Origin: Eledone cirrhosa
Lineage: Eukaryota
Direction: 5' to 3'
Assembly: GCA_964016885.1 (NCBI GenBank)
Contig: OZ024740.1
Coordinates: forward strand, 70,928,001 to 70,992,000
Length of the DNA: 64,000 bases
The notes under the pieces are model-generated. The model saw only the letters and a program-made list of their open reading frames with translations, was not told the DNA's origin and made no database searches. The translations under genes and the position numbers were made by a program. This document shows, piece by piece, positions 12,201-62,819 of this stretch. Every line of letters begins with the position of its first letter. Positions within the stretch are counted from its first letter, which is position 1.

Positions 12201-12860
12201 TCCGATTATATTCCATGTGTTAAAATCCCTACCCACTCTAGCATTAAAGTCACCAAGCACGATGACTGTGTCTGCCTGAGGGATATTTCTTAAAACACCT
12301 TTCAAGGCATGGTAAAAGGACACTTTTTCTTCATCGACAGAATTCATAGTTGGAGCATACACACTCACCAGGGTAGCATATCTTCCCTTGTCCAGTGGAA
12401 CTCTCATGGACATAAGACGCTCACTAATCCCTACTGGGAATTCCTCTAATTTATTCACAAGTACAGTCTTAACAGCAAATCCTACCCCAGCCTCTCTTCT
12501 GGTTCCTTCATCTCTTCCTTTCCAGAAGAATGTATATTCTCCACAAAATTCTGTAAGATGACCATCTCCAGCTAACCTCGTCTCAGATATAGCCACGATG
12601 TCAAGATCGTAACGTCGAAGTTCCTTTGCAACAAGAGCGGTCCTTCGTTCAGGACGCTCCAAGGAATCCCTGTCAAGCAGCGTCCGTACGTTCCAGCAGC
12701 CAAGACTAAATGCCTTGTTTGGCTCTATTACAATGGCACGATGACGAGCGGGCCCAGGCTGTGATAACCTGGGCCCCTGCCCTTATTGCCAATTATCTTT
12801 TTTGTTCCAGAACCTAAATTGCCAATTATCTCTTTTATATTGTTCTGGAACATCATTGAA
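9225..12860 (-). mobile_element. RTE-BovB-type LINE, near full length (5' UTR probably continues at 18850-19130)
   Basis: WNVRTLLD..RPERRTALVAKELRRY APE endonuclease; RT with VDLTKAFDTV, KQGD and YADD; three C-terminal C2H2 fingers; 3' UTR ending in gtcatcatcatgtatg. Confidence 0.93.
9497..12720 (-). pseudogene. RTE ORF (APE-RT-C2H2 x3), split into three frames
   Basis: ORF track 11643-12662, 11239-11691 and 9497-11230. Confidence 0.9.
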
Positions 12861-12886
12861 TTGAAGAAAAAAAAAAAAAAAAAAGT

Positions 12887-12893
12887 AATAATA

Positions 12894-12940
<47 letters not shown>
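12887..12940. repeat. (AAT)n flanking the 3' end of Tx1 element 1 (also 18819-18848 at its 5' end)
   Basis: Direct reading. Confidence 0.95.
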
Positions 12941-12941
<1 letters not shown>

Positions 12942-13183
12942 TTTTCTTTATTAACCACAAGGGTTCACATAAAGTAGACATTAAGGACAGTACAGGACAA
13001 TACAGGACGGTACAAATGGGCATTTCTGCGTGTAAAAAAACAGAGGTTGAAATAAAATAACAAAGAAAAATTCCCCAATAGGGGGGAGACTTCCAAGGGA
13101 CATTTGTGGAGAAAGCCCATTAAAAGACCACAGTGGCCCTGACCACCAGGGCAAGTACCCTCTCCCAGTTTTCCACCTTTAAT

Positions 13184-16100: not shown

Positions 16101-16583
16101 CCCTCCTTCCCTATCCACTAATCCCACACAATCCCAGCGTGCATCTAAGATCCCGTTCCAGTCGCCCACTAACACTAAAGAGTGGGACGTTCCAAGAAAG
16201 GTCTCCAGACGCCGGAAGAAGTCAGGCCGCCCTGCTCCTGTCGGGGCATAGACGGCCACTAACCTGAAAGCTTGCCCGTCTCTGCTGGTCACGTCCAGCA
16301 CCACCAACTTACCTTCTGGGTCCAGGAAGATGGCCCGTATGGCAAGATCCAAACCTCTCCGAAAAAGCACAGCAACTCCTCCCCCCGAACCCGGACGGCT
16401 GGGAGATGCGTACACATCGTAGCCGCCGAAGATCGGTGCGAAAGCCTGTGCTTCGGAGATTCTGGTCTCGCTGATGGCCACTACATCTATGTTTAGTGAC
16501 CTGAGGTCGTTGAGCAGGTGGCCCTGCTTCCATGACGACCCCAAGCCACGCGCATTTATGCTGCCTATTCTGAGTGAGGTCAT
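13184..16583 (-). pseudogene. Tx1 ORF2 (APE endonuclease, RT, C-terminal CPRC..ETVLHALVQC); frameshifts near 15050 and 13770
   Basis: SINARGL, ISET, GDWN, YLDR, TDH; LDQSKAFDRV, RQGCPLS, YADD. Confidence 0.93.
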
Positions 16584-16617
16584 GTTGAAAAGGAGTGGAA
16601 AAGATGGGAAAGACCAC

Positions 16618-18610
16618 TTACCTTACTTCTCGTAGGGGAAGGACGGTTTTTCCATCCTTTTCACTGCTTGTGGCCTCCTCAGGAAGGATGTCCTTATAAA
16701 TCCTCCTGGAGAGTGCTTGTCGGAAGTCTCCGGTGTCTTTGGGGAATTTTTGTTTTAGTGCCATGTACGTTTTCTGTGTGATGCGAGTGATTTGTATGTG
16801 TGGAGGTGGTGTGAATTTTGGGGTTGTTGTGTAGTCTTTTTCTGTGATGCTGGTGTTGTGTTGGATGTAGTGTAATAATTGCTTGTTGTTCAAATTTAAT
16901 GCTGTGTAGTGTGTATCGTTTTGGTTGTTTTGTTTTGTTTGAGTTTGTTGTGGGTTTGTTTCTGTTTCGCATTTTGGTGACTTTTGTGGTGTAGGTGATG
17001 GTGGTGCTGGGGTTAATGATGGTGATGGTGTTGGTGTTTGGGTTGATGGGGTTGGTGATACTGGTGTGGATGGTGGCATATCTGTCCTAACTTTTTTGTT
17101 TCTTAATTTATTTGTTTCCCTCTGTATTTTGTTTTTGGAGGGGGAAGGAAGAGAATTTTTTCTTTTTTGGTTTCTTTTTTTTTCCCCGGATATCGTTTCC
17201 CACTCCTCGTCGTCACAATCTATCTCCAGTTGTGATAGGCCGGGGAGTGGAAAATCCTCCACAGCCGTTAGTTTTGGTTGTGGTGTGGTGGATGGTGTAG
17301 GCGCTGGTGCTAGTTCTGAAGCGTTGGGTGGTGGTGGTGTTGGTTTTGCTGGTGGTGGTAGTGGTGTTGGTTTTGCTACTGTTGCTGGGGTTGTTGCTGT
17401 TATAGTTGCTTCTGTTGTTGCTGCTACAGTTGTTGCTGCCATCTCTGCTACTGGTCGTGTTGATGGTTGTGTCACTGGGGTGGGTAGGAGAGGTTGGCTC
17501 AACCTTTTAGCCTGAGGGCAGAAAGCCCTTAGGTGGGTTCCTTCACCACAAACGACACACCTAGGTCTTCTGCCCTCGACAATTACCGTGAGGTGGCTGC
17601 CGTCAGTGAGGTCTATTACCTCTGGGATCTCCTCAATGCTTTTTTTGGTCCGCTTGGATCAGGAGCTCCAGCCCAGATCCGGACCAGTTTTCCTGCTTTT
17701 CTTTTGCTATTGCTATTATTTTCGTGTTGGCTTCGATGCCGGCGAGGACAGCCGCTATTAGCCAGGGAATTTCGATGGCCGGTGGAACGTGGGTCACCCT
17801 GATCTTTACGAGTCTCTGGCCACAATAGCTTGGGACGAGTGTGAAGTCGTCACTTTTTAATGGGGCCATGGAGTGTTCTCTAGCCTCCTCTGGTGTTTCA
17901 AAGAACACATCCACGGTTCCATACTTTTGCCCACGTCTGATGTGGGTTTTTCTTGCCCACACATGTCCCAAAGCTTTTTGGATTTGGGACTCGGATGCCC
18001 GTTCCACTCGGCGCGATTTTACATTTATTGTTCTATACGACACGGTGCATAGGCGCCGATGCTCCATTTTATTAGGTGGGGGGGTGAGGCTGACCCTGTA
18101 CCCATCTTTCTTTACCATTTGTTTGGCATTTTCTAAATCTTCCTGAGTTACCGTGAACGCTTCGAATTGTTTTGCTACTCTGGCGAAACTGAGGGGGGTT
18201 TTTATAATGTCATTGTTGTTGTTGTTGCTATCGTTATTTGTGTTAATATTAATTTTAGTTTCAGTTGTGGTGGTGGTGACGTCAGTCGTCTTTGGTGCGG
18301 AAGAGTCCATTTTGCTTGATTTCATTTCGACATCACGAGTTAATTTATTTTTTTCTTCTTTTGTTTCTGTTGTCGCGGTGGTGGTGGGGGTGGTGGTTGT
18401 CGCGGTGGTGGTGGTGGAGGCTTTAACACCTGCAGTCATTGGTAATGGCGGGAAATGAATGTCTGCCTGAGACAAATTTAAAATATTGCTAGTGCTTATA
18501 TTTTTTTTTGTGTTGGCAAACGTAGTAACATTTACAATGGTGGTGTCGGTGTGAGGTGTTAATTTGTGAGGAAGGCTTTCAGCTGTTTGTTGCAGAGGTG
18601 AATTATCCAT
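16618..18610 (-). CDS. Tx1 ORF1 (gag-like, CCHC knuckle CVVCGEGTHLRAFC, Pro/Thr-rich tail); one frameshift in an A-run near 17640
   Basis: ORFs 17633-18610 and 16618-17502 are joined by a frameshift; homologous to 28040-30003. Confidence 0.8.
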
Positions 18611-19399: not shown

Positions 19400-19560
19400 A
19401 TTATCATAATTGCTTTACAGCATAGAGTTATGGCTCTCCACACTCTGAGCTCAAATCCCGCCGAGGTCAACCTTGCCTTTCATCCCCACGGAGTCAACAA
19501 AAGAGAGTACCAGTGATGCGTTGGACCAGTCGCTGGATCCGTGGCAAAAGCAGAACAATT
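19400..19560 (+). mobile_element. tRNA-derived SINE (degenerate)
   Basis: ctgagctcaaatcccgccgaggtcaaccttgcctttcatcc core. Confidence 0.8.
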
Positions 19561-21653: not shown

Positions 21654-23402
21654 TTAAACCTTATTTAATGTTGGTCTATATTTTTGAATAAACATATTTT
21701 CCTTATTTATTCGCATTTGTTCTGTTGTATTGTTAGCGCAAAGGTAAAATGGGAAGACTTGGAATTTGGGTGTCTTATTACTTGCGCAAATGTCTAGATG
21801 TGCACTTAGTGGTATTTGTCTCGTGGTTGGATCTCGTAATTGTTGGCGATGAACTGTCATTCTGTTTCTGAGTGTGAGTTTAGTTTGTCCTATATAATCT
21901 TCATTGCATCCTTTACATTTAATGGCATAAATTAGATTTTTTGATGAGCAAGTGAAGTGATTTTTTACAGTAAAATTTTGTCCTGATTTAAATGTATACG
22001 TGTTGCCTTCAATGAGGTGAGTGCAGGTTCCACAATTAGAGCGACCACATTTTTTGATACTTGGTTGTGGGTTTGTGGTAGGTAATTTGGCATTGGTGAG
22101 TAATGTTTTCAGTGATTTTGGTTGTCTTTTGCTTTTGATTATTTTGTGTGTTTCAAGGGCTTTTTTCATTCTTGGGTTTTGTTTTAGTAGTGGGATGTTA
22201 TTGTGAATAGTGTTGTAAGCTTCCGCATTTCTTGGGTTGTGTGTTGAGATATATGATAGAATATTGGACGTACCTTGAATTTGTTTCTGTTTCCGTAATT
22301 CATCAATGCCTATTGCTTTAGCCCTTTCTATTCCATTATTTATTAGTAATAGTGGGTACTCTCTCTCAAGTAGAATTTCCTTTAATTCTTGAAGTCTTTT
22401 ATTTCGCGTTTCATAATTGGAGACAATTGTGCAAATTCTTCTTGCTAGGTTAAAAGGAATGTTCGTCTTCGTGTGCTTTGGATGGTTGGAGGTGAATAGC
22501 AGATATTGTTTGGAATCTGTTGGTTTGTAGTGTATGTCAGTTTCGATATTTGTGTCTTTTTTTGTGATTAAGATGTCCAGAAATGGGAGTTGATCTTGGC
22601 TGTATTCCATTGTGAATTGGATGTGGTTATTGATGCCGTTTATTAAGTTTTTGAAATCCTTCAGTTGGTCGAGTGTGTGGGACCAAAGAATGAGGCAATC
22701 ATCCAAGTAGCGTTTCCAATTCTCTGATAAATATTTGTGGAAGTTCAATCCGTATTTTGATTTGGACTGTTCATATATCTGGACTTCTAAGTATGCCATG
22801 ACTAAGTTGGCATAAGTTGGAGCGGCTTTTGTGCCCATCGCAGTCCCCGATATTTGCTTGTAAGTATTGCCATCGAAATCAAAAAAGTTGTTCTGTAGGA
22901 TGAATTTTAATCCCTCGGTGATGAAGCTTTTTTCTATTCTGTCAGGTATCTCATTGGGATATTTCTCTAGCCAGAATCCTATTGCTTCTAGTCCGTATTG
23001 GTGTGGGATCGTTGTGTAGAGATTCACTACATCGAAAGACACAATAATAGTGTCGTTGTTGACATGTTTGGGGAGGTGGTTTAAGAGGTCCAGATCGTCT
23101 CTTACAAGGCTTGGTATGTGTTTCAGTATTGGTTTCAGTAGTATGTCTATAAAGTTGCTCAATCTGTGTGTTTCACATTGTGGGCCCGCTACAATTGGTC
23201 TTAATTTAAGGTCTGTGGGGTATTGTGTGTTCACGCAGGCTGAGGTGGATTGTTTACAGGCATCGTTGATTATTTTACATTTGTGGATCTTCGGAAGTCC
23301 GTAAAGGTTGCTGGTTTTGTATTCAAAATTTGTTAAATAATCGCGTTCCTTTTTAGTTAGGTCTTCCTGGTATCGATAAATCAGTGTGTTTAATTTGGTC
23401 AT
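21654..23402 (-). CDS. Penelope RT-GIY-YIG polyprotein (open part)
   Basis: LYGLPKIHK, LRPIV, SFDVVNLYT, GTAMG, RYLDD, PFLD, HYKPT, CGRSNCGTC linker, NLIYAIKC..C...YIGQT, R..VH. Confidence 0.93.
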   Translation of the reverse strand: MTKLNTLIYRYQEDLTKKERDYLTNFEYKTSNLYGLPKIHKCKIINDACKQSTSACVNTQYPTDLKLRPIVAGPQCETHRLSNFIDILLKPILKHIPSLVRDDLDLLNHLPKHVNNDTIIVSFDVVNLYTTIPHQYGLEAIGFWLEKYPNEIPDRIEKSFITEGLKFILQNNFFDFDGNTYKQISGTAMGTKAAPTYANLVMAYLEVQIYEQSKSKYGLNFHKYLSENWKRYLDDCLILWSHTLDQLKDFKNLINGINNHIQFTMEYSQDQLPFLDILITKKDTNIETDIHYKPTDSKQYLLFTSNHPKHTKTNIPFNLARRICTIVSNYETRNKRLQELKEILLEREYPLLLINNGIERAKAIGIDELRKQKQIQGTSNILSYISTHNPRNAEAYNTIHNNIPLLKQNPRMKKALETHKIIKSKRQPKSLKTLLTNAKLPTTNPQPSIKKCGRSNCGTCTHLIEGNTYTFKSGQNFTVKNHFTCSSKNLIYAIKCKGCNEDYIGQTKLTLRNRMTVHRQQLRDPTTRQIPLSAHLDICASNKTPKFQVFPFYLCANNTTEQMRINKENMFIQKYRPTLNKV

Positions 23403-24932
23403 TATTTTTGATTGCTGGTAGTTTTTTTACTCTTTCATAGTAATTAGCATTTTGTAAGAGAGAGAACATAGAATTTTTATATTTTTCAGCCTCCATAATG
23501 ACAACAGTACTTCCCTTGTCCGCTTCCTTAATTACAATGTCCGGATTGTTTTTTAGTTCATGGATAATCTCCCATTCCCTTCGACTTGTGTTGGGTTTGG
23601 GTTTAGGTTGCGGTAGTTCATGGTATGGGAAGGTAGCTATGTGGTCACAAAATTTGTCCAGAACTCTGTTTCTACCTTTTGTTGGGTTGTAGCTGCTTTT
23701 ATTCCGTACAATTGATTCGTCGTTATTCTCCTTGTCAAAGAATTCCTCTGTGAGACGTAATTTTCTACAGAAGTGTGAGATATCGTCATTTATCTCGTTG
23801 GGGTTAGGATATTGTGGTGTTGGTGTGAATTTCAGACCTTTGGAGAGAATTTTTTACTTGTTGGGCTGAGAGGTTTGTATTTGAAATGTTAATTATTTTC
23901 GGTTTTTCAAAATCGGTTTGTGCCACCGGGTGTCGTGAGTCCTGTAGCCTTGGTCTAAAAAATGATTTTTCTGGAATGTTTTTTCATTGGTATTATTATA
24001 TCTAATGGTATTTCCCCTGTTGTTGTGTGGTCTTGTATAGAAGTTTCGGACGTATTGAGGTTCGGTTTGTTGATAGTCCGGGTTGTAGATTTGGTTCCTT
24101 TGTGTGGGTTGGGATCTATGGTTTTGGAACAGGCTCTGTGTGGGCAGGGGTCTACGGTTTTGGAATAGGTTTTGTGTGGGTTGTGATCTGCGGATCAGGT
24201 CCTGCCTTGTGTTCGGGGATCTTTGGTTTTTGTTAGTAGGGTTATAGTTTTGTCTATGGTTTCTGGGATTATCGTTATAGTTTTGCTGGGGGTATGTTGG
24301 ACGTTTTGTTACTTTTTTTGTTATTTGTTGTGCATGTGGTGTGTGAGTTTTAGTTTGTTTTAAAAATGGGTTACCTGTATGTTGTTCATTTTTGAAGTCC
24401 ATTTCGTAGTTGTTGAACCAGGTGGCGTTTTTTTCCCATTGCTGGAGGGATGTGAGTTCTTCATCCTCACAGTTTTCTTTCCAAAGTTTTAGGGTTTTTT
24501 TGTAGAGTAGGCCTTCAGAGTGCTTTGAGATTTCTGTGTCCATCTGTTGGTCGAGTGACTTGAATTTTTCTTCGTTGGAGTTGGCTCTTAATCGCAACAG
24601 TTCTATTTCTGTTTTAAATTTTTCCAATGCCATCTTTTCCCTAAGTCTTTGTTGGTTTTCTGGTTCATTCGGGATGGGTTTTATTTAGAGTTTTTTGGGG
24701 AGGATGATTGGGGTAGAGTTTAGCCACTTTTCATATATGTCTGCCTTGCCATTATTTTTTAGGAGATTCCAAAGGGCGAATTTGCGGGCTGTGAGCTTTT
24801 GAGTCCATATGTTGATTAGGGTGTTTTTCACTGAGTGGACATCTCGTAGATTGGGTTCTAACGGTTGTTCAAGCTTTTGGAGCATTGTTGTTTCAATGGT
24901 TTCGATTAGCTTAGTTAATACTGGAGTAATAT

Positions 24933-33639: not shown

Positions 33640-34200
33640 GGCTGCAGATTGGCAGTATCGGTAGAGCGTCGGACACTGTTTTGCAGCATAGAGTTACGGC
33701 CCTTTACGGCCTGAGTTCAAATCATGCCGAGGTTAACTTTGCGTTTCATCCTTACGGAGTCGATAAAATAAAGCACCAGTCACGCATTGGGGTCAATTTA
33801 ATCGACTTTCCCCTCCCCCAAAATTACTGACCTTGTGCTTGTACTAGAAATCATTTGCTTTCTAGCATAGTCACGTCCCTTTACGATCTGAGTTCAAATC
33901 CCGCCGAGGTTGACTTTGCCTTTCATCCTTACGAGGTCGATAAAATAAAGTACCAGTAATGCACTGGGTAATTGCTGGCCTTGTGCCTAAAGTAGAGACA
34001 ATTATTAATATTATTATTATAGGGCTGTGGATTGGCAGAATCAGCAGAGCGTCGGACACCATGCTTAGCAGCATAGAGTTACGGTCCTTTACGGTCTGAG
34101 TTCAAATTCCCCCAAGGTTAACTTTGCCTTTCATCCTTACGGGGTCGATGAAATAAATTACCAGTAATACGCTGGGGTAATTGTGCCAAAAGTAGAAACC
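33640..34200 (+). mobile_element. Three tandem tRNA-derived SINE copies (33640-33850, 33862-34000, 34021-34200)
   Basis: A-box-like tggcagtatcgg, B-box gagttcaaatc, conserved central domain, ATT tails. Confidence 0.88.
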
Positions 34201-34369
34201 ATTATTATTATGGTTAATTTTTGAAATCTCAGACATAGATGTTAAACGATCTGGATATTTCAATTAAGGAGCACCACAAATGGATTACTAGAAAATCAGG
34301 ATCTTTATATTTTGATATTTTCTCCATTTCGTTGATAAATATATTGTCACGTCCTTCCTTCGCTTGAAT

Positions 34370-35731
34370 AGGGTTAGTGACCCTTTCCCACTTTTCTTCC
34401 TTTTCTTCAAGCATAACCTCACTCAGGTTAGGCAGTGAAAATGTAGGTGGTTTAGGGTCATCTCGGAAGCAATGTCACTTGCTAAACGACCTCAGGTCGC
34501 TGAACGCAGATGTGACGATCATCAGTGAGACCAGAATGTCCAAGGCACGAGCCTTCACACACATTTTCGTCGGCTACGCATCTCCAAGCAGTCTGGGATC
34601 AGGGGGCGGAATCGCTGAAACGGACCCAGAAGGTACGTTTGTTGTGCTGGATGTGACCAGCAGCGAAGGGCTTGCTTTCGGGCTAGTGGCTGTCTATGCT
34701 CCCGACAGGGCAGAGCGGCCTAATTTCTTGAGGCACCAGGAGGCCTTTCTAGAAACGTCCAGTTCTATCATTTTAGTGGGTGACTGGAACGGTATCTCAA
34801 ACGCACACTGTGACTGGGGCTACAGATACTGGAGGAGAGTGGAAAAGTCTCACAAACCTATTCAGACATTTCCAACTGTCTGACAAGTACTGATTGTGTT
34901 CTCGAATGTACCAATGTGGACATGGAAAACCGCATCGGATCATCCAGATCGTAACTCACGTATTCTGTGGGGAGTAGAAAAGGTTAGCATAGGGTGTACA
35001 CCATTGAAAGTAGTCGACTATACAGGTCACAAACTTGTGATATGTACAGTGGACTTAGATAGGTTTCATAGACAGGGACAGGGACCCGATCACTGGGAGC
35101 TGAACGTGTCCTTTTCGGCGCGCAAAGCCTACAGAGACCGGATTAGTGAATTAGTTAAGCGGACGTTGCCGGGAGAAATCGTCAACAACAAAAGGGGCGA
35201 TTGGGATAGAATTGATTAGGTTTGGTAAAGGAGTAGCGATAGAGATAACTAGAATAATGGGAAGGCTTGTTAAAAGGCTGGAAAAAGCGTTTAGGAAACA
35301 TGCTTGTGGCGAGGTTGGCTCTCGATAATTTCTACAATGCAAAGCCCAAAGGCTGCATTGTCAGAGCTTGTGCACATGCTCTTAGACACGAAGGGACGAA
35401 AGCAATTCAATGGGACCAAGTGGCGGAGGCATGATGTGGAAACAAAGCCACGGTCCAGTCCTTAGAGGACTACAACGAACGCATGTTACTCGATCCCAAG
35501 CAGATGTGTGCCATTTTTCAGCAACACTTCGCTTAACTGTTCGAGAGTAGTGGTGAACCGTATTGTTTTAAAAAGTCGAAAACAGATGTTGAAATACGGA
35601 GAGCAATAACTAAGTCGCCTGGTTTGGATGGTTTGTACTACGAAATTTATGCTTACGTGCCAGACTTATTCGATGACCTCTTGGCAGACGTCTACTCCAA
35701 CTGGCAGCAGAACGGAAGAATTCCCAGTTCT
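34370..35731 (+). mobile_element. Old Tx1 ORF2 fragment (APE to pre-RT)
   Basis: HLLNDLRSLN, ISETR, VAVYAP, GDWNG, SPGLDGL. Confidence 0.85.
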
Positions 35732-35754
35732 ATGGTTTAGACACCAAACCACCC

Positions 35755-35910
35755 CGCTTCGCGGCATAACATTATGGCTCTTCACGTTCTGAGTTCAAAT
35801 CCCGCCGAGGTTAGCTTTGCTTTTCATCCTTACGGGATCGATCAAATAAAGTACCAGTGACGCACTGGGGTCGATTTAATCGACTTTCCCCTTCCGAAAT
35901 CAGAAACCAT
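35755..35910 (+). mobile_element. tRNA-derived SINE
   Basis: Same core sequence. Confidence 0.85.
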
Positions 35911-36534
35911 TATTATTGTTGTTGTTGTTGTTGTAAGAATAACAATAATAGAAATTGTAATAAATATACATAATAAAAATCATATGTCAACAAGAATCAT
36001 TTCCACAATAGTGGAAGATTGCACTTTATGATATTTCCAGAGGGATCCCTACACTAAACCCCAGATTACTCTCTTGTCTCACGGACATTGAAAGTGCCTT
36101 TTCCCGGTTTCTTTCCTTATGCTTTCTTTCCTCGTTCCTGTCAACTATCTTTCATAAAATAGACTAAGTGTGTTAGTGAATAACATAAGAAGATAAAATC
36201 TTAACCCTTTTTTATACCAAACTACCTAAAACTATCCCTCGTTCTACAGTACAAAACTGTTTGAAAGTGTTTATATTTATCTAAAAACCTCCCACCGTAA
36301 TTTTATATAAGAATTTGTCAAGTTATGTTCCAAACACCAGCTTGATAATGATCGAGTTAGTTATATTACTAAATCTCTCAACATTCTTGGTTATTTTCAA
36401 AATTATTTGAAAATCACAAGCAGCGTTTTTCATTGGGAATAACGTAGTCTGTTTATAGTAATGTAAATAATTACCACCTGAAAATTCACTGAGAAATTAA
36501 TCACTGAAATATTTGTAACGTATTATTTATATAT

Positions 36535-36660
36535 TTACGGCCTGAGTTCAAATCCCGCCGAGGTTAACTTTGCCTTTCATCCTTACGGGGTCGATAAAAT
36601 AAAGTACCAGTAATGTACTGGGATAATTGCTGGCCTTGTGCCAAAAGTAGAAACAATTAT
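36535..36660 (+). mobile_element. tRNA-derived SINE, 5'-truncated
   Basis: Same core sequence. Confidence 0.85.
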
Positions 36661-38089
36661 TTATATATTTACATACTTACATATTTATTGGGCTGGTTGC
36701 AAAAAGTAATTCTTCTCGCCCAACTTTGCAGTGTATTCCAATCTTAGTACTTGATTCAGTATCAGACGGTGTTATATTCTGTATTATAATTTTTTCAGCT
36801 TTTTAAAATTAAAATAATTTCTTAAAATTAATTACAAGTTTCAGGTACATTCCCTGTAAACTACTTAGTAAAGTAACCTCCCCTAAAACTGGTTGGTTAA
36901 GTTGTCTCCCTTTAAAATTGTTTGAAATATTTTATTCATTACAGCCCATTTTGTTTCCGTTAGTACATATTGCAATTTCTTCTTCTTCTTCTTCTTCTTC
37001 TTCTTCTTCTTCTTCTTGAGTCATCTCCTCTTTCCAAGGTGAAGCATCTATTTTGATTTTTCTAATGGCTAGAATTCATGTGGATGACCATACCTGCATA
37101 CTCATAGATTTCTCCGCTAACTAGAGCTGTTGTGCCAACCCATTGTCGAATTAACAGTTGAACATCTTCAAAGCTACTGGTGTTCACAACTCTTTCATCA
37201 TCTAATTAAACTGATGATCATCACATAAGCTACTGCTTACTATGGGACAAGCAGGATATTTATCGAGGCTTACTCCTCTAAATCTGACCTGTTCTGCTAG
37301 ACTATCCTATGATAGCCATACTTGAGTCACGTCATGTATGGTGTGGCTTTTCACCACACAGCTAGGTCTTCGAACTGGAGAGGCTAGGTACTCAGCTTGA
37401 ATGAACATATGTTGCGCATCATCAGTTCGCTGAGTGTCATGTTGAATAGACACTGGGGCGCCACAAAAGACTACCCAGTGAATCTACTACAGCTCTGCAC
37501 ATTCTTACAATTTAGATTTCAATTTAGCCATATCTCTTGCTATTTTGAGCACAGGCTCGAAGAAGAAGCCCAAACATTTCAGCTATCTATCTATGGTTTG
37601 GTGCCAAATTTCTTTTGGTTTATTCCGTTTTCTCTTTTCTTTTGGCAACCAGGAAAAATCTGTATTCAGTAGCGAGAAAATACAGCTTAAGCGAACTAGA
37701 AGAGAAAAATGGCTATTCAATAAAAGTATTCCGCCTCCAAAACAGTATAATGGCAGAAACGATAAAGCACCTGACTAATTGTCTATTTCACAAATTAGTT
37801 ACATCATTGTTTGAAAAAATATCTTCATATCTATAAACAGTAAATTTATTTTCTTGGTAGATGAAATGTACCCATTGGAGGTAAATTTGCCACGAGTTGG
37901 GAATCCCAGAGTTAAGTCAAAAACCAATGGGAATATACTCAATACAGATATCAACGTTTCTCATATCTAGTGTTAAAGTTGAAAGGGGGGTTACTTTATT
38001 AACTAAATTAAAGGGAAACAACCTAAAATTTGAAGCAACATTTGCTAGTACAAATGTAGAGTGGTGAGGACAGCATCGGATGAAATAGT

Positions 38090-38370
38090 TCATCCTTATA
38101 GTGCCGATAAAATAAAGTACCAATAACGCCGGGAGCTCGATTTAATCGACTTTCACCATCCCAAATTGCTGGCCTTGTACTAAATGTAAAAACTTTTGTT
38201 TTAACATAGAATAAAATGCGTTGCAACTCTTTACATTCCGAGTTCAATGGAGTCCATTTTGATTTTCATCCTTCCAGAGCCACTAAAATAAAGTACTAGT
38301 CCTGTACTGAGGTCGATTCAATTGACTTTCCCCTTTCCACAAATTTCTGGTATTGTACCTAAATTTGAAA
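38090..38370 (+). mobile_element. Two degenerate SINE fragments
   Basis: ttcatcc...aaaataaagtac...gatttaatcgactttc occurs twice. Confidence 0.65.
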
Positions 38371-38569
38371 TCATTGATGTTATTCAAAAATTGAACGGTG
38401 ATGATTCCCGTATTATACAATCTCATCTGTTTATATGTTAGGCAGTGGATTTCAGTGACTGCTTGAGATGTGTTTTCCATTTCAAGGCATTGTAACCAAA
38501 TACCAAGGATCTTTATGCATTTTTGAGGTATCAATAGTTGATTCATTAAGTATATTTCATATGAGACTT

Positions 38570-46092: not shown

Positions 46093-46500
46093 AAGGCGGT
46101 GGATTAGCAGTATCGGTAGAGCATCAGACACCATGCTTTGCAGCACAGAGTTACGGCCCTTCCCTAGATCTGAGTTCAAATCCCGCCGAGATTAACTTTG
46201 CGTTTCATCCTTACGGGGTCGATAAAATAAAGTACCAGTCACGCACTGGGGTCGATTTAATCGACTTTCCCCTCCCCCCAAATTACTGGCTTTGTGCCTA
46301 TACCAGAAATCATTATTTACGTGGATTGGCAGTATTGGTAGAGGGTCGGACGCCATGCTTTCCAGCATAGTTACATCCCTTTGCGGTCTGAGTTCAAATC
46401 CCGCCGAGGTAAACTTTGCCTTTCATCCTTACGGGGTCGATAAAATAAAGTACCAGTAATGCACTGATAATTGATGGCCTTATGCCAAAAGTAGAAACAA
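46093..46500 (+). mobile_element. Two tandem tRNA-derived SINEs (46093-46312, 46320-46500)
   Basis: Full head plus core. Confidence 0.88.
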
Positions 46501-52558: not shown

Positions 52559-52961
52559 TATAACGGGTTTTAGGGTCAATTCTTAATATACATAATAGAG
52601 ATCAGAAGGCATTTAGAACATTGACTAAATCCATTATCGATGTTGTAACTCTATTTATTAGTTGTACATGTTGAACGGATACATTAGGTACAGGTCGTAT
52701 CTACATGTGTAGGATGTAGTTTGGTCCGCTTCATTGCAAGATGGAGATGTTGTTAGCAGCGAGGAGTGTAGCCTGGTCTTGTCGATAAGAGAGGTGCGTG
52801 TAGACTAATGTCTCTCTTGGTCACCTCCGCTCACACTGGTGACGTAGTTCTGGACAGTCGAATTAGTGCACCGAAGGTTTCGATTGGCTCACACTTCAGC
52901 CAACTTACCTCCGTAACACCATTCCGCCGCAGAAGGAAAATACATTTTATTCACTGCTACA
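52559..52961 (-). repeat. 3' LTR (TGTAGC...TTATA on the minus strand); PPT at ~52962-52975
   Basis: Matches 57922-58324. Confidence 0.95.
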
Positions 52962-53183
52962 TCACCCCCTGCTTAGGCTTACAGCCGACAGAGAAATAAG
53001 GGTAGCAGTTGAATGAAAGAAAAAGTACTATATAATAGTAAACACAATAAAATATATCACTGATAAAGAAATGTTCATATTACAGGAAAGTCAGAAATAG
53101 TGTAATGTTCACCTTAGTTCATACATTTAATACAAATACAAGGGCGGAGCAAACTCCAAGAAGATTGCTGTAAATAACATAGT

Positions 53184-56100
53184 TCATATATAAAGAGTCT
53201 TGCAAAGCTTCTTGGGCCAATGTACTCGCCGACCGCTACGTGTGGTGGTGACATATGTAGGTGTAGGTGTGTGCGATGTTATATGTGTATTGTGGCTTGG
53301 CTGATGCCAGGTGTATGTGGGGGGAAAATGGGGCTCTTGTGTGAGAGTGTCTGTATAGGCCCGTTTTACCCTGTCAATGGACACAGTCTCTTTTTTACCC
53401 CCAATGTCTAGGGTGAATAGCTTATCTGTGCGCTCAAGCACGCGATAGGGACCGGTATAAGGTGGCATGAGAGGAGCTCTCACGGCGTCCTTTCGTAAAA
53501 AGACGTGGGTCCATGAAGCAATGTCTTTCGGGACCGAAGATTTGATTGTCTGTTGGCGAGGGTGCATAGGCGGAAGATTGCTGAAATATGATTGCAGTCT
53601 GCTCACATACAGAGCTGGGTCTGTTGCTGGTAGGTCCAATGGAGCTAACATCTGACCAGGCAGAGATATAGGCACTCCGTAAACCAACTCGGCAGGGGAG
53701 TAGCCTAGATCTTCCTTGATGGCTGCACGACAGCCCAGGAGGACAATTGGTACATATTCGCTCCACCGCTGCTGATCCGGATAAGCGCGCAGTGCGGCTT
53801 TCAATTGGCGGTGGAAGCGTTCAATCATTCCGTTAGAAGCTGGATGGTAGCTGGTCGTTCGAATGCGTTGCATTCCCAGGATCCTTGAAAGCTCTCGGAA
53901 AAGGTGTGACTCAAATTGTCCACCGCGGTCAGTGGTGATAGTGGCTGGAACTCCGTAACGCGATATCCAACCCGATACTAGAGCTCGCGCTACAGATTCC
54001 GCCGAAATGTCACTTAAAGGAATGGCCTCAGGCCAACGTGTGAAGCGATCTATGCAGGTCAGGAGGTATGTAAATCCTCGGCTGACCGGCCATGGTCCGA
54101 CAAGATCTATATGGACATGGCTGAACCTAGCGTCTGGAGTGCTGAAAGTTCCAAGGGGTGCGCGGATGTGTTTGTGCACCTTTGACTTTTGGCAGGATAG
54201 GCAGGAACGTGTCCAGGCAGTGATGTCACGCCTCATATTAGGCCAGAAGAATCTAGCCGAAATGAGCTTCACTGTGGTCGATATTCCAGGGTGTGCCAGA
54301 CCGTGCAAGGTGTCGAAAACTGCTCGACGATGAGTCACTGGCACTAGAGGGCGAGGTGCATCTGTCGAGGTGTCGCAGATAATCTGTGTGTCCGAAGTGG
54401 GCACAGGCAGATATGCAAATTTGCCAGTTGCAAATTCAGAAGACGAGAGGTCCAAAGTATCCAGAGGTGGTTGTTCTGTGGCCATTCGTTGGAGGTCGAT
54501 TTCCGCTGGCGATGACAGGGAATTAATTGGGAGGCGAGACAGTGCATCTGCCGCCGCATTCTGTTTACCAGAGATGTGTCGGATATCGCTGGTAAATTGC
54601 GAAACGAAGTCCAAGTGGCGAGTTTCGCGAGGTGAATATTTGTCCGGCTTAGAACGCAGTGCGAACGTAAGCGGACGGTGGTCAGTGTATATAACAAATT
54701 GGCGACCCTCCAGTGAATGCCGAAAGTGTTTCACTGCAAGGTACATAGCCAAGAGTTCACGGCCGAATGTGCTATACCGTGTTTCTGCAGGCTTCAGCTG
54801 TTTAGAAAAGTAGGCAAGAGGTTGTAACTGTTGTTGGTGATGTTGTTGCAGTACTGCACCTACAGCTGTGCCTGATGCATCAACAACCAGTGAAAACTGG
54901 GCACCAGACACAGGATGTGCAAGCAGTGATGTCTCCGCAAGCTTTCGCTTCACTTCGTCGAAGGCTTTTAGCTGATTCGTGTCCAATGAAATGGAATCGT
55001 TCTTCTTTTTCCTGTTACGTAACAGGTCGGACAGAGGAGACAGGAGATCCGCACAGTGTGGGATAAAGCGCCTGTAATAGTTCAGTAGCCCAAGGAAATG
55101 TCGTAGTTGACGAAGTGAAGTGGGTGGTTGGAGGTCTTGTACCGCTTTCACTTTATCAGGTAGTGGCGAAATTCCTTCTGGGCTGATGACATGGCCCAAG
55201 AAGACAAGTGAGGAAGCACCGAAAACACATTTTGCCGGATTAATTCTCACTTGGTATTTTTGAAATCTCTCGAACAGGAGACGGAGGTGATTGACATGTT
55301 CCTCAGGTGAGGCACTTGCCACAAGAATGTCGTCGATGTAGTTGTACACGAAGTCTAAATCGCGCACAACTTCATCCATAAATCGTTGGAACGTGCTGGC
55401 TGCGTTTCGCAAACCGAAAGGCATGGTCAAAAATTCAAACGCTCCAAATGGAGTTGTTACTGCAGTTTTAGGTATGTCTGCCGGGTTCACCGGGATTTGG
55501 TGGTATGCTTTGACCAAATCCAATTTGGAGAATATGTTGCATCCATGCAGCGAAGATGCAAAATCCTGTATGTGTGGTATCGGGTAGCGGTCGGGTACCG
55601 TCATTGCATTTAATCGGCGAAAGTCCCCAGTGGGACGCCAATCACCGGAACGCTTTGGTACCAAATGCAAGGGTGCAGCCCACGGGCTTGAGGATGGGCG
55701 AATGATCCCGAGCTGCAGCATGTGATTGAATTCAGCCTTTGCGGCCTTCAGTTTCTCAGCAGAGAGACGGCGAGGGCGCGAAAACACAGGAGCTCCGGAT
55801 GTTTCAATGTGGTGCTTGGTGGAGTGAGTAGGCTCACTCATCACAAAATTCAAATTTGTCAATTCCGGGAAGGAATGCAAAAGTGATTGGTAAGGATCTT
55901 CTGTAGCAGCGATAAAGAAGACCGGGCTGACCGACGAGACAGTCGATCTGGTACCCGGCACAGACAGTTCTGTGTTGGCATCCAACAACCGGCGTCTGCG
56001 CATATCCACTATCAAGTTATAGTGGTGCAGGAAATCTGAGCCTAGGATGGGGTAAGGCAGATCAGCAACAGTGAAGATCCACGTGAAATCTCTACGCAAT

Positions 56101-56345
56101 TCCAGGTTCAAAGAACGAGAAATCTGACCGTACGTGGGGATCGGTGACTGGTTTACTGCTTGCAGAGAGACGGTTGAGAGTTGGGGCTTCTCTTTGAGAA
56201 GTTTTAGCGGCCAAATGCTACAAGCCGCGCTGGTGTCGATCAGACAACGTGCTTGCGACTCAGTGTCTGTGATGAAAAACACACGGTTATTAGGGAGGGT
56301 CAGAGGAGACTGTGCCGTGCTCAGGTCTCCTGAAATCTGTTTCCC
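53184..56345 (-). CDS. pol: Pol (protease, RT, RNase H, integrase), probably expressed by -1 frameshift
   Basis: Uninterrupted ORF: [54 protein letters not shown]. Confidence 0.95.
56300..56345 (-). promoter_or_regulatory. -1 ribosomal frameshift signal (G GGA AAC plus downstream hairpin)
   Basis: Heptamer in the gag frame at 56345-56339; aggagac...gtctcct stem about 7 nt downstream. Confidence 0.75.
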
Positions 56346-57229
56346 TGGTCTGAAAATGTACAAGGCTGTTTACAGGAGCGTGCTGCTGCGCCAAAACGGC
56401 TGTGGTAGTAACACAAACCTGAACTGCTTGTGTGACGGCGTCGTGGCGAGGGTGAACGGCTCTGGAAACGGCGTCTGGGCGAATGAGCCCTGTGAGTGCT
56501 TAGTTTTCTCACTTCCTTGGTTAGCTGCTCTATTGCTTGCAGCATTGCTGCATTTGCAAGTGACTGGTCGGTATAACTGGCAGCCGCTGGAGTGAAGGAA
56601 GCGACCGCAGTCGGCGGCTGGGATGCATTGAAGGAGACAGGAGCGAACGGATTGACCGCAGCCGGTGGCTGGGGTGCCTGGAAGGAGGCAGGAGAGAACG
56701 GATTGACCGCAGCCGGTGGCTGAGGTGCCTGGAAGGGGGTAAATGAGGCTGGGTGTCCGATGACACTCATAACCCTGTCGGCCGAAGCCGCTAGCTGGTC
56801 GACAGGAGCAGCCTCCATCATGGGCGCTAAGATCGCCTGAACTCCGGGGGGTAGCCTTGAGACAAAAAGCTGTCTAAGGAGGGCACTGTCAGCTGGGGCA
56901 TCTTCCGCCAGCTCTCTCATCCGACGCAGTAGTTGTGTGGGCGTCCGATCACCCAAATGTTCGTCATTGACGAGCGTCTGAAATTTTTTTTCTGCGGACA
57001 ATGTGGTCCGCCGCAACACTTCGAGCTTCACGCTCTCATAGGAGGCCCCAGGGCGAGGATCGGTAATTAAGTCTTTGACGACCGACGTCAATGACGCTGG
57101 AAAAGCGCTTAACAGGAGATTTAACTGTCTGTGGTCACTGGTGATGTTATTCGCTGTGAAATGTGCTTCTATCTGGGCGAACCAGACAGTGACGTCACCG
57201 GTAAACGGTGGCAATGAAGTGCTACCCAT
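56321..57229 (-). CDS. gag: Gag with C-terminal CYYH...C...C (CHCC) motif
   Basis: LPPF...[44 protein letters not shown]. Confidence 0.93.
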
Positions 57230-57901
57230 TGTGTATACTGATGTAAAAGCAAAGGGCAAAGAAAGGACAACTCTGCACTTGTCACCGAGACAAAAGTTAA
57301 AATTCAGGCCAAGAAAAAATATAATCCGAGTGAAGGACAGAAAAAGAAAAATATATCAAAAACAATGTTGGAGGGAAAAACGTCAAGCTTTAAAAAAAAA
57401 TTATGATTTATCTTTGTCCTATTATTTTTTTTTTTTTTTTTTTTTGTGTACTTTTCAAAATGGCGTTGCCTCCGTCATTTTGGCGGGAAAACAGCTGAAG
57501 AAGACGGAAGTCGGCCATCTTGCTCTGTCCGGCTATCAGCACCAACAGTTTTTTTTTTAGTTTTTTTATAGCGTCGCCCAATCAGAAATTTAGAGGGAAA
57601 AATAAGATTTTTGTAGTAACGCATGTGTTCGGTGATGTTAGAAAGTGAAGGTGTGATGTGCAGATTTAGTAACAATAAGACAATATATCAAATACATATT
57701 AGGACTCACGCTAATCGCGTACATACCCCGAGAAAAGGCGAGTGGCTTTGTTTTTTTTTTTTGTTTTGTTTTTTTTTTTTTGGGGGGGGGGGGGGGATGC
57801 AAAATGTTGATGTGTTCGTTGCAACGGAAAGATGTGGTTTCTTCTGTGTTGATGTCCTTAAACGTTCGGGTCACCATTTATAATGTGATTTGTTGTATCG
57901 T

Positions 57902-57919
57902 ATCACGTCGGGGTCACCA
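57902..57919 (-). promoter_or_regulatory. Primer binding site, tRNA-Trp
   Basis: TGGTGACCCCGACGTGAT, 2 nt after the 5' LTR. Confidence 0.93.
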
Positions 57920-57921
57920 TT

Positions 57922-58324
57922 TATAACGGGTTTTAGGGTCAATTCTTAATATACATAATAGAGATCAGAAGGCATTTAGAACATTGACTAAATCCATTAT
58001 CGATGTTGTAACTCTATTTATTAGTTGTACATGTTGAACGGATACATTAGGTACAGGTCGTATCTACATGTGTAGGATGTAGTTTGGTCCGCTTCATTGC
58101 AAGATGGATATGTTGTTAGCAGCGAGGAGTGTAGCCTGGTCTTGTCGATAAGAGAGGTGCGTGTAGACTAATGTCTCTCTTGGTCACCTCCGCTCACACT
58201 GGTGACGTAGTTCTGGACAGTCGAATTAGTGCACCGAAGGTTTCGATTGGCTCACACTTCAGCCAACTTACCTCCGTAACACCATTCCGCCGCAGAAGGA
58301 AAATACATTTTATTCACTGCTACA
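57922..58324 (-). repeat. 5' LTR
   Basis: Matches 52559-52961. Confidence 0.95.
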
Positions 58325-58454: not shown

Positions 58455-58650
58455 TCTAGGGCGATAGATTGACAGAATTGTCAGAGCGCCAGATAAATTA
58501 ATTTTCGGCATTTGGTTATGACCCTTTACGTTCTAAGTTCAAATCCTGCCGAGGTCAACTTTTCCTTCCGTCCTTCCGGAGTACAAGTACTGAGATCGAT
58601 TTTCCCCGTGTTCCACCCATCAAATTACTGACCTGGTGCCAATATTAGAA
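58455..58650 (+). mobile_element. Degenerate tRNA-derived SINE
   Basis: aagttcaaatcctgccgaggtcaactttt core. Confidence 0.7.
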
Positions 58651-59153: not shown

Positions 59154-59550
59154 AATATCTTTTCCATGGATACAACATTTTGTTTACAACAGTCCACAAA
59201 TCACTGACCAGTCTGACTATCGTCTCAATAAGTACGAGTTCTATACTGTGATCAAATCGATTGACTACAGCTGACTCCTACAAAAATTGGCCTGGTTCTT
59301 AAAAGAGAAATCGATATTTGATTAATATTGTCTTTTCTATTTTTAAATTTAGGAAACTTAAAACCAGAATGATTTTTTTTCTTAAAATCTGAATGATGAA
59401 TATCAAAGAAGATTGTTTATCAATGATAAAAGTACCACATGTTCTCGCAGGGAGTAAGGAAATTGATAACCGTTGTAACTAAATCTACCTTACTTCCTTT
59501 TAAAATGCTATAATTAAAACATGCTGTTGAGCATGTTTTAAGTATAGTTT

Positions 59551-61622
59551 TGTAGCGGTTGTCTCCCTTGTTTTGATTGGGATCTAGACGGGAAGTAGAA
59601 CCCTTTCTGCAACTTCCGGTCAGAGCCCTATAAAACTAACAACTTTAAGCTTTCTAACTCTCTTTGCCTTTTCGGCACCAGGTCAAGAGCCTCTCATTTG
59701 GCTCTGCCATTAATTTGGCCAACAGGCGCCTGGCCTTAGCCAGGCGTCCTCTGCCAGCCGCGTTTGCCTGGCAATCAAAACGGTAACTACTAACTTTGTT
59801 TCATTCTAACATCTATCTTTGACATGTCAAGTATACTATCTACCATTGTTAATTAAATATTATACACCCAAAACATATATTCCTTGTTACATTCATACAA
59901 CCCAGTATCCTCGCTATATTGGTAACCCTGACGTGATACGAACACGCAGCCGTTCATCGCTATAAGTGGTCCCCCCCCCCCAAAAAAAAAGAAAAAAATA
60001 GCACATCTGGTTTTGTGAGTAACATTACGAATACACAGCAAATTTAGCGACAAACTATGAAAATACTCAAGGACACGCACACACGCACATGTGGAATTCG
60101 CACAGACAGACTTTTTCTCTCACGCATCAATTAACTGTCGCATTTCACCAATATATATATATGTTTCTCGTTTCTTACAACGAACTCTTTCAAAACACAA
60201 AAAAAAAAAAAAGAAATTTGATATTCTTTAAAAAACATTTCAACAGGAACATTTATTTTCGATGAACCATTGCCTTTTTGTTCATCGTTTTCTTCATCGT
60301 TCAAGTTTTTTGTTTTTTTCCAAAGTTCACACCAATAATTATGCTGAGTGAAGCATTTCTTTTTCATCATTGTCACTTTCAAAATTGCACTATCATTTTC
60401 TCGCGCGTTAGAAATATTATTTTTTTCAACCTTGTATTGGCACGTGTAGGCAGCACAAATTCTCGATTCACAGAGATGTCTCTACACACAGACATAGCCG
60501 CACGCCAGAGATAACATTTCTCGCCAAGGATTCTTCAGCCTTAAGCTATATTCTTCTATTTGCCGGTTTATAAATTTACAATGTAAATTTACCGTTGATA
60601 ACCGCGCATTTATTAAGAATGCTTATTTCTCTGGTCGCTGGCCTCTTGACCCTTCCAGGTCAACGCATTCTCAACATCGACCATCAACTTCGGCTGCTAT
60701 TTCTAGCACTTTGCGCAACTCATTTTTTCTAAAAAAAAAAAAATAAAATTTTTTTTTTTTTTTTACTGTGAATTTAAACACCGAATACGCTCACTCAGCG
60801 AGACAACAGCATCAGCAGCAATACCTCAACACAGCTTCACCAACAACCAGCAGAACGCCAGAGAATTTATTTTTGCAGCACTCTCCCTGTGAGAAAATCC
60901 ATTCGGAGGTTGGAAATTTCACGATATACCACAGAACAGAGACCACCTGCATTCATTCTCTGGAACACACTTTCTTTCCTGCTGTCATGTGATTGCACAC
61001 CTGTGAACTATATTTTGTACATTTGAACTTTGAGCTCTTCTATTACTTTTACTTTATTACATTGTATCTTTGGGTGATGGATAGATGGATGTCCAGTCGT
61101 TCTCTGGCCAAGAGCGGTTGACTACCTTGATATCTATCATTGATTTTTCCAAACATTCTTTTGTCGTAATTTTCATGCTTGTTACAACATTCTCGTCAAC
61201 TTGCTACATATTTTCATTTCGATTTTTATACACTAAAATTCTGGCGGGAGGTTATGTAGCGGTTGTCTCCCTTGTTTTGATTGGGATCTAGACGGGAAGT
61301 AGAACCCTTTCTGCAACTTCCGGTCAGAGCCCTATAAAACTAACAACTTTAAGCTTTCTAACTCTCTTTGCCTTTTCGGCACCAGGTCAAGAGCCTCTCA
61401 TTTGGCTCTGCCATTAATTTGGCCAACAGGCGCCTGGCCTTAGCCAGGCGTCCTCTGCCAGCCGCGTTTGCCTGGCAATCAAAACGGTAACTACTAACTT
61501 TGTTTCATTCTAACATCTATCTTTGACATGTCAAGTATACTATCTACCATTGTTAATTAAATATTATACACCCAAAACATGTATTCCTTGTTACATTCAT
61601 ACAACCCAGTATCCTCGCTATA
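59551..61622 (+). mobile_element. Young non-autonomous LTR element (368-bp LTRs at 59551-59918 and 61255-61622, non-coding interior)
   Basis: LTRs differ at one visible site; TGTAGCG...CGCTATA ends; TSD GTTT; Trp-type PBS at 59920; purine tract ggcgggaggtta before the 3' LTR; no retroelement ORF inside. Confidence 0.92.
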
Positions 61623-62819
61623 GTTTTCTTTAAGTAAAATAACATTTTCCAAGCTGATTAAGTAACTCTAACTATAATTTATTGTGATTTTTTTAGTCTT
61701 TATAGCGTTTATATTTAGATTATCTTGTGCACAGAGTACTTAACTCTGGCTCCTGCAAAGTATTTAGCGGAGATGGTTCCTTATTTGCATATATGCATGT
61801 ATACTTTGTATATAATACTTAATTACCACTAATCTTCGTGCTGCAGCTGTCGCATTAAACATCTTCTTACAAAAAATATATTTTACAATATTCAAAGTGA
61901 GTCAAAAGTAATTCAGTTCTTACTTTATGAAACACCACTTTCAAGTAAAGGCGGATAATGAATTTGGTGGTGGTGGTGGTGGTATGTCGTTGTTTAGCCC
62001 CAGGTCAACTTTGATTGATCATATATTTGATCAAAAACATTCCAGCCATAACCTTCCTGTCTTTTTATGAGTATCTGGGGCTACATGGCCTACTCTGTTT
62101 TTTTTTCTTATTTAAAACGCTAAAGTGTAATTTCAAGAAAATATCACTGCTAGTTTGCAATGCATTCAGCAAGAACGTAGAGGCTCCCGTGTCAACTCGT
62201 CTTGGTCCATGTATTCAAATAGTTCCTGCAAGCTAATAAACCCTCATTGATTCTACACTGCTGTCGCTGCTTATAATAGTGAATTAGAAAGATAAAGCTA
62301 GGATTCTGCCTGCATCTAGAAATTCTACTTGATTTACATTCTGACCAGTTTGAGATTGTACACGGGTGAGGGTGAATAATCTCAAGTAAATCACAATAGG
62401 CAGTCAGCGTATTGATATCTGCTCACAAAATATATCATACAGGTCTTCAATAAAACGGAAGAAATATTGTAAAATTATTTTACCATATAAAATTGTAGTC
62501 TCTAAGTAGTCGCTTGACCTAGTTTTATAACTGTTAAATTCCCTATAGTCTCACCCTTCCACGTTAAAAAAAGAAGAAAAGACACTTTGGATAATGTAGT
62601 CCTAGATATACAAAAATACTTAATGATTATGACTGAAATATTTTTTACCATAAACCTGCTTAGTCACAGATGAATTGAGGCTTTACAACAACAATAACTT
62701 CACTATCACTATTTAAATACTTCATTGTCATAGAATCTCTATGTCCTATGTTCTCAACATTTTTTGCTCCATACCTCCAAGACGTCCTGATTTTTCAAAT
62801 GCCTCCCCCACGTTATATT

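What the first reader, a model, noticed from the sequence alone, without database searches (positions are those of the whole stretch)
59920..59951. ~32-nt tRNA-Trp complementarity extending past m1A58
Seen: TGGTAACCCTGACGTGAT-A-CGAACACGCAGCC. Recalled metazoan tRNA-Trp(CCA) ends GGCTGCGTGTTCG-A-ATCACGTCGGGGTCA-CCA. After the 18-nt PBS (two changes, both still pairable with the tRNA as A-C mismatch and U-G wobble respectively) there is a mismatch exactly opposite A58 and then 13 matching bases through the T arm. The autonomous element also reads ...GTGAT-A-CGA. Known: m1A58 normally stops plus-strand copying at 18 nt and causes misincorporation when read through. Inference: either a fossil of RT read-through of m1A58 or a selected extended primer interaction helping the parasite compete for primer.
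Basis: partly seen in the sequence, partly recalled or inferred. Interest (0 to 1): 0.75.

Follow-up and report, generated by a model that had tools for sequence, protein, structure and literature searches.

The report
Retrotransposon inherits over-copied primer tRNA
Hundreds of copies of a gene-less jumping element match 32 rather than the usual 18 bases of the host tRNA that primes their copying, with one wrong letter opposite tRNA base 58 (predicted to be methylated); this is likely a frozen copying overrun that today's copies pass on through their own RNA, and whether it now helps priming is untested.

Summary
Observation confirmed. 59920-59951 follows the 5' LTR of a 2.07-kb non-coding CsRn1-type LTR element. 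It is complementary to the last 32 nt of the host's mature tRNA-Trp(CCA), with mismatches at nt 5, 10 and 19 (opposite A58). The extension is family-wide: 358 flank-selected matches; in 90 copies checked, 3 variant cells of 1170; nt 19 is A 87, G 3, never T.
Likely origin: an ancestral plus-strand strong-stop DNA ran past A58 into the tRNA and jumped back to the LTR tip, leaving a decayed second PBS 47 nt downstream. About 24 independent CCA-bearing over-copies in this genome mostly end near G37 and carry excess transversions at nt 19 (p=0.003; all mismatches p=0.08).
New here: tRNA-perfect PBS copies are scattered, keep A19, and have identical LTR tips (6/6 versus 13/37, p=0.004). So the tRNA copy is sometimes inherited, apparently only up to nt 18.
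Selection for extended pairing is unproven, and the extension is not parasite-specific. This scan noted the same over-copy before on other DNA of this genome (e1-10321918).

The parts
59547..59550 (+). 4-bp target-site duplication, left copy (right copy 61623-61626)
   Evidence: sequence
59551..59918 (+). 5' LTR of the non-coding element (368 bp, TGT...ATA; 1 difference from the 3' LTR, at 59877)
59920..59937 (+). PBS1, 18 nt, complementary to tRNA-Trp 76-59; mismatch at nt 5, wobble at nt 10 (the family's commonest form, 70 of 90)
59938..59938 (+). nt 19: A opposite tRNA A58 (predicted m1A58); a faithful copy would be T
   Evidence: never T or C in family context
59939..59951 (+). 13-nt extension complementary to tRNA 57-45 (T arm and variable loop)
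59957..59966 (+). second copy of the LTR tip plus a 2-nt spacer (inferred landing site of the over-copied strand)
   Evidence: sequence; intact in the basal subfamily
59967..59977 (+). PBS2, a decayed second tRNA-Trp primer site (11 nt intact in basal copies); inferred to be the original PBS
61243..61254 (+). polypurine tract and spacer
   Evidence: sequence
61255..61622 (+). 3' LTR
52559..58324 (-). neighbouring coding Ty3/Gypsy element (CHCC gag with DUF7041; RT, RNase H, integrase; 403-bp LTRs; 4-bp TSD), a comparison case
57898..57919 (-). its PBS: perfect 18 nt, A at nt 19, 3 more matches (ends at tRNA 55); a second partial PBS starts at 57876

Best explanation
The 32-nt tRNA-Trp match is likely a frozen product of reverse transcriptase reading past tRNA base 58 (predicted m1A58) in an ancestor of this non-coding LTR family, and it is now likely inherited through the element's own RNA. 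Shown: the 32-nt match with CCA end, the A opposite A58, the second LTR tip and PBS 47 nt downstream, and near fixation across the family. Inferred origin: plus-strand strong-stop DNA copied the primer to at least G45, put A opposite modified A58, and re-annealed at the U5 tip upstream of the old PBS. The tRNA copy then became the new primer site and the old one decayed. Inferred present cycle, two routes. Most insertions keep the RNA's PBS, as in Ty1/Ty3, so a two-mismatch PBS can dominate. A minority use the tRNA-bearing strong-stop DNA, which restores nt 1-18 to the tRNA sequence and makes the two LTR tips identical, but leaves nt 19 as A, so copying normally still stops at or before A58. 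Predicted: the extension pairs with the freed T arm once the primer is annealed (31 bp); whether selection keeps it is open.
For: (1) Match and numbering. (2) Family-wide: 358 matches to a flank-only pattern; 90 of the 100 listed were checked by script: nt 19 A 87, G 3; extension 3 variant cells of 1170. Genome-wide non-A at nt 19 in this context: 7 G, 0 T, 0 C. (3) The overrun recurs: 27 loci, 24 events after dropping 3 shared-flank relatives, of CCA-bearing copies reaching at least 35 nt behind LTR-like ends. 15 of 24 end at nt 36-42, bracketing G37; transversions at nt 19 are 4 of 23 versus 7 of 333 at other free positions, p=0.003. L144 and L179 also mismatch opposite G37, and L163 opposite G26. 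(4) The jump-back is seen in young copies: L333 has a 9-nt tRNA-perfect start, then returns to the U5 tip and the parental PBS. Ten tandem PBS-unit loci in the young family. The same two-PBS layout occurs in the window's coding element and in metagenome records L211/L222. (5) Re-templating only to nt 18: in L282 and L294 the LTR-proximal unit is tRNA-perfect and the distal one A5/T10, both A19, and L294's units share a private spacer change. A5 with C10 occurs in 0 of 90. PBS state is unclustered on a tree of 82 copies (18 changes, shuffled mean 18.2). Identical LTR tips in 6 of 6 perfect-PBS copies versus 13 of 37 A5/T10 copies, p=0.004. (6) Literature: m1A58 stops HIV-1 RT (PMC8599865, passages); m1A gives arrest plus misincorporation (PMC4787781, passages); Ty1/Ty3 dead-end strong-stop DNA (PMC5371799, section 2.2).
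Against: Counting all mismatches, nt 19 is not significantly enriched in the long over-copies (5 of 23 versus 33 of 333, p=0.08). Nt 20 has more (9, nearly all C to T, explicable by CpG decay or an A57 tRNA array seen). Most events have the faithful T at nt 19, and A is the rarer error (1 event). For this family the A19 is a single ancestral event, so an ordinary T-to-A mutation cannot be excluded. m1A58 was not measured in this species. The tree is poorly resolved (8 of 79 branches starred), and recombination between co-packaged RNAs would also scatter PBS states. The LTR-tip test was post hoc, on 50 of 60 fetched copies. In basal tandem L274 the proximal unit is the mutated one. The extension is somewhat more conserved than the rest, which pure drift does not predict.
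Confidence: 0.72

Rival explanations
1. Whatever its origin, the extension is now kept by selection. It lets intact tRNA-Trp anneal over 31 bp, offsetting a PBS that has drifted to two mismatches, possibly to escape 18-nt tRNA fragments that cannot reach the extension. This is compatible with the fossil origin.
For: Predicted duplex energy: -27.7 (18 nt, window), -55.9 (32 nt), -36.3 (perfect 18 nt) kcal/mol; co-folding pairs the whole extension. Extension invariant in 30 copies and less variable than the PBS in 90; pi 0.054 versus 0.14-0.21 in the basal subfamily. The family with the long extension has a mismatched PBS in 81 of 90 (C10 lost); the coding family with a 22-nt match has a perfect PBS in 27 of 30. 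Mouse ETn shows the same two-mismatch common PBS with scattered revertants (PMC7472051, section 4.3).
Against: 58 of 1090 other 13-nt windows are equally invariant, and 37 of 1225 in the basal set; both samples were anchored on adjacent flanks, which lowers local diversity. In the gag-coding family the extension (pi 0.086) equals the adjacent UTR (0.092) and has a fixed mismatch. The T10 and A11 changes fit CpG decay. The family comparison is only two families.
Confidence: 0.3
2. The extension is re-copied from the tRNA in each cycle by routine read-through, with A inserted opposite m1A58.
For: High conservation; G19 recurs on several PBS backgrounds (7 copies; 1.9% versus 0.74% background A-to-G, p=0.02).
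Against: No T19 or C19 in the family, although T is the commonest letter in independent over-copies. PBS mismatches persist in most copies. 14 of 328 other A columns vary as much.
Confidence: 0.07
3. The stretch was captured from a tRNA gene or a T58 variant at DNA level, or matches by chance.
For: One degenerate tRNA-Trp copy has T58 (L062); an A67 isodecoder gene matches T10 (L085/L176).
Against: The CCA end is not in the gene copies found; the T58 copy differs at nt 28 and in its anticodon arm; no gene matches A5+T10; chance 5e-9.
Confidence: 0.04

Closest known systems
CsRn1 clade of Ty3/Gypsy elements (PwRn1, AgCR; PMC2582038, passages read)
   Same: tRNA-Trp PBS, 4-bp TSD, TGT...ATA termini; CHCC Gag in the neighbouring coding element
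   Different: The paper gives a PBS of about 12 nt and, in the passages read, no extension or second PBS; this family is non-coding. The paper's PBS alignment is a supplementary image that I did not see, and it may show extensions.
Retroviral plus-strand strong-stop at m1A58 (PMC8599865, passages read)
   Same: Copying of the primer normally ends before A58; read-through gives extra tRNA sequence
   Different: There read-through is described as blocking completion and integration; here an over-copy is fixed in an amplified family
Ty1/Ty3 primer handling (PMC5371799, section 2.2 read, section 2.1 in passages; Friant 1996 seen only as a reference title)
   Same: Extended or bipartite pairing with the T arm; PBS usually inherited from RNA; dead-end tRNA-bearing strong-stop DNA
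   Different: Ty pairing is split and experimentally shown; here it is contiguous and untested, and a minority of insertions appear to inherit the tRNA copy, which Ty1/Ty3 are reported not to do
Mouse ETn/MusD PBS drift and reversion (PMC7472051, section 4.3 read)
   Same: Non-coding element whose commonest PBS has two mismatches, with scattered perfect revertants
   Different: Retroviridae; no extension past 18 nt described in that section
Culex cqgypsy_1 tRNA insertion at the PBS (PMC3286476, passages read)
   Same: CCA-bearing tRNA copy at the LTR-PBS junction with a duplicated LTR end (26 nt)
   Different: Single element, two whole tRNAs head to head, interpreted there in relation to Twin SINEs

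Membership tests
CsRn1 clade | tRNA-Trp primer binding site | tested here: met
CsRn1 clade | 4-bp TSD and TGT...ATA/AAA LTR termini | tested here: met
   matching 4-bp TSDs in most complete relatives
CsRn1 clade | CX2HX9CX3C Gag | tested here: not met
   the element holding the finding has no coding region (longest stop-free frame 116 codons, no tblastx match to the neighbour), so it is filed as CsRn1-type and non-autonomous; the motif is present in the neighbouring coding element (translation) and in L009
CsRn1 clade | Pol phylogeny within the clade | not tested
   no reference Pol sequences fetched
Non-autonomous LTR retrotransposon | LTR pair, PBS, PPT, TSD, no ORF, many dispersed copies | tested here: met
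Non-autonomous LTR retrotransposon | identified autonomous helper sharing LTR signals | tested here: inconclusive
   the neighbour shares only the PBS and one 23-bp leader match; no wider search for a helper
Ty1-type extended primer interaction | sequence 3' of the PBS complementary to the T arm | tested here: met
Ty1-type extended primer interaction | pairing required for priming or transposition | not testable with these tools
   needs mutagenesis; conservation tests inconclusive
m1A58 read-through product | CCA end, contiguous copy past nt 18, mismatch opposite base 58 | tested here: met
m1A58 read-through product | m1A present at 58 in this tRNA | not testable with these tools
   inferred from general tRNA biology; not measured here

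The most novel reading that the evidence does not exclude
A copying accident was co-opted. The over-copied T-arm complement lets only the intact tRNA bind tightly, freeing the 18-nt PBS to accumulate mismatches that blunt 3' tRNA fragments. The family also shows that a Ty3/Gypsy element uses two plus-strand transfer routes, one retrovirus-like, which can be read directly from genome assemblies along with the positions of tRNA modifications.
Probability: 0.2. Interest if true: 0.75.

Novelty: new variant of a known kind. Interest (0 to 1): 0.5.

Why it matters
Read-through of m1A58 is described as a dead end for retroviruses. Here such a product appears to have founded a family of at least 358 copies. 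The copies also give a natural experiment on an old question, whether Ty3/Gypsy elements inherit the primer's sequence. Perfect-PBS copies with equal LTR tips and an unchanged nt 19 suggest a minority retrovirus-like route that stops at A58. This also bears on dating insertions by LTR identity. Each component mechanism is known, and a function for the extension is unproven, so the interest is moderate.

Tried and rejected
Rfam tRNA search of the genome scored only 63 candidates and gave 16 hits that I did not use; tRNA-Trp genes came from pattern searches instead. Isodecoder as source of A5+T10: no such gene. Parasite-specific extension: rejected. Perfect PBS as an old ancestral clade within the young family: not supported (LTR-body divergence 0.37% in 5 copies versus 0.73% in 33). 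The first tree used a sample enriched for perfect PBS and was replaced. Gag codon-position diversity in the second family was unusable because of truncated copies. The aligner over-extended four endpoints; I kept its lower count. The CHCC regex missed through a frame error; the motif was read from the printed translation. The 3-nt match past A19 in the coding element ends one base before position 54, a second stop known for HIV-1 RT (PMC8599865), but 3 nt is too short to weigh. Metagenome scan: 18 records, 4 non-T at nt 19; host tRNAs unknown, used only as a lead. No RNA holder listed. Paper searches that found no report of such an extension: 0 papers; 0; this one used a recalled, unverified guess of the host group. 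Papers listed there but not named above were seen only as listings. PMC12471100 passages added nothing. PMC145666 was not held. No supplements were read.

Full report
Setting. The window lies in a 3.0-Gb animal genome. The finding starts 1 nt after the 5' LTR (59551-59918) of a 2.07-kb element with a 3' LTR at 61255-61622 (1 difference in 368), a polypurine tract, a 4-bp TSD and no coding region. A coding Ty3/Gypsy element lies beside it on the minus strand (52559-58324) with RT, RNase H, integrase and a CHCC Gag. These are the marks of the CsRn1 clade (PMC2582038, passages). The two elements share no LTR similarity.

Observation. Host tRNA-Trp(CCA) genes were recovered. The window matches the mature 3' end at 29 of 32 positions: A5 (mismatch), T10 (wobble) and A19 (opposite A58) differ, and nt 20-32 match tRNA 57-45 exactly (chance 5e-9). 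The CCA end is not in the gene copies found, so the match is to the mature RNA.

Family census. A pattern fixed only on the flanks gave 358 matches. Of the 100 listed, 90 were checked by script; four rows of one tandem array and the last six rows were not fetched. Result: A5T10 70, G5T10 11, G5C10 9, A5C10 0; nt 19 A 87, G 3; three single changes in the extension. Genome-wide, non-A letters at nt 19 in this context are 7 G, no T, no C. A basal subfamily (23 matches) has the same extension, A19 in 22, and an intact 11-nt second PBS.

Origin. Downstream of the extension is a second LTR tip and a decayed second PBS. This layout is what a strong-stop DNA would leave if it over-copied the primer and re-annealed at the U5 tip (inference). 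Young copies show the jump: L333 has 9 tRNA-perfect bases, then returns to the tip and the parental PBS, and ten loci carry tandem PBS units. The window's coding family has the same layout with a 22-nt match in 30 of 30 top hits, as do metagenome records L211/L222. Over-copying is recurrent: 27 loci (24 events) carry CCA-bearing copies of at least 35 nt behind LTR-like ends. 15 of 24 end at nt 36-42, around G37. At nt 19, transversions are enriched (4 of 23 versus 7 of 333, p=0.003), all mismatches are not (p=0.08), nt 20 has more changes, and two further events have indels at nt 17-20. Some longer copies also mismatch opposite G37 (L144, L179) or G26 (L163). Arrest and misincorporation at m1A are established (PMC4787781, passages; PMC8599865, passages). 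That these positions are modified in this species is inferred.

Present-day cycle. Ty1 and Ty3 are reported to inherit the PBS from RNA, the tRNA-bearing strong-stop DNA being a dead end (PMC5371799 section 2.2). That explains how a two-mismatch PBS can dominate. Three results point to a minority route that does inherit the tRNA copy. First, PBS state is unclustered on a tree of 82 copies (18 changes versus 18.2 shuffled; weakly resolved; 8 of 90 rows dropped). Second, in tandem loci L282 and L294 the LTR-proximal unit is tRNA-perfect and the distal one is not, and L294's units share a private change; five other tandems have A5/T10 in all units, L281 is perfect in both, and basal L274 goes the other way at one base. 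Third, among 50 of 60 copies with both LTR tips readable, tips are identical in 6 of 6 perfect-PBS copies, 5 of 7 G5T10 and 13 of 37 A5T10 (p=0.004 for perfect versus A5T10; post hoc). The six perfect copies have six different tips, so they are not one master. All keep A19. So when the tRNA is copied into progeny it likely stops at or before A58, and the extension travels with the RNA. Recombination between co-packaged RNAs could mimic the first two results but does not obviously predict the third.

Function. The extension would double the predicted duplex energy (-55.9 versus -27.7 kcal/mol) and pairs fully in co-folding with A58 held unpaired. Evidence for selection is weak: invariant in 30 copies, but so are 58 of 1090 other windows; low diversity in the basal set, with anchoring bias; and no excess conservation in a gag-coding family with a T19 extension. 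That family also shows the feature is not confined to parasites. The parallel with mouse ETn (PMC7472051 section 4.3) suggests the untested idea that the extension offsets PBS mismatches that evade tRNA fragments.

Novelty. The paper searches found no report of an inherited over-copy of this kind. The library lacks most subscription journals, and the PBS alignment in the supplement of PMC2582038 was not seen. Earlier unreviewed notes of this scan describe the same over-copy on other DNA of this genome; they are leads, not support. Verdict: real, a new variant of known mechanisms, interest 0.5.

Noticed in passing
window 56345-56339 (minus): GGGAAAC heptamer in the gag/pol overlap of the coding element, a likely -1 frameshift site (recalled motif type)
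   Followed up: no
window 59891-59918 and relatives L295-L354: The last 25 nt of the LTR are hypervariable between copies (pi 0.17) and often differ between the two LTRs of one insertion
   Followed up: yes
L228-L257 (gag-coding family): PBS nt 18 is hypervariable, and L230, L241 and L257 carry a G inserted between nt 18 and 19, possibly RT stutter at A58
   Followed up: partly
L147, L163: Near full-length CCA-bearing tRNA-Trp copies joined to related LTR ends
   Followed up: partly
L010, L144, L152, L158: PBS or tRNA copy followed by inverted PBS or inverted LTR sequence (fold-back products)
   Followed up: no
G000:C4:353401162-353466156: Long tandem array of tRNA-Trp-like T-arm matches with A57
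   Followed up: no
window 59933-59961: Predicted RNA hairpin pairing PBS nt 14-18 and extension nt 21-24 with the spacer; in G5 copies the decayed PBS2 also pairs with PBS1
   Followed up: partly
window 9497-16622 and 21654-23426 (minus): Non-LTR retroelement frames: endonuclease plus RT (one with C2H2 fingers), and RT plus GIY-YIG (Penelope-like, recalled label)
   Followed up: no
window 19408-19494, 33674-38375, 46133-46466, 58496-58582: Dispersed SINE-like repeat family
   Followed up: no
L003/L127, L322: Tandem elements sharing an LTR; in L003/L127 both PBS units carry G19, the first perfect, the second A5/T10
   Followed up: partly
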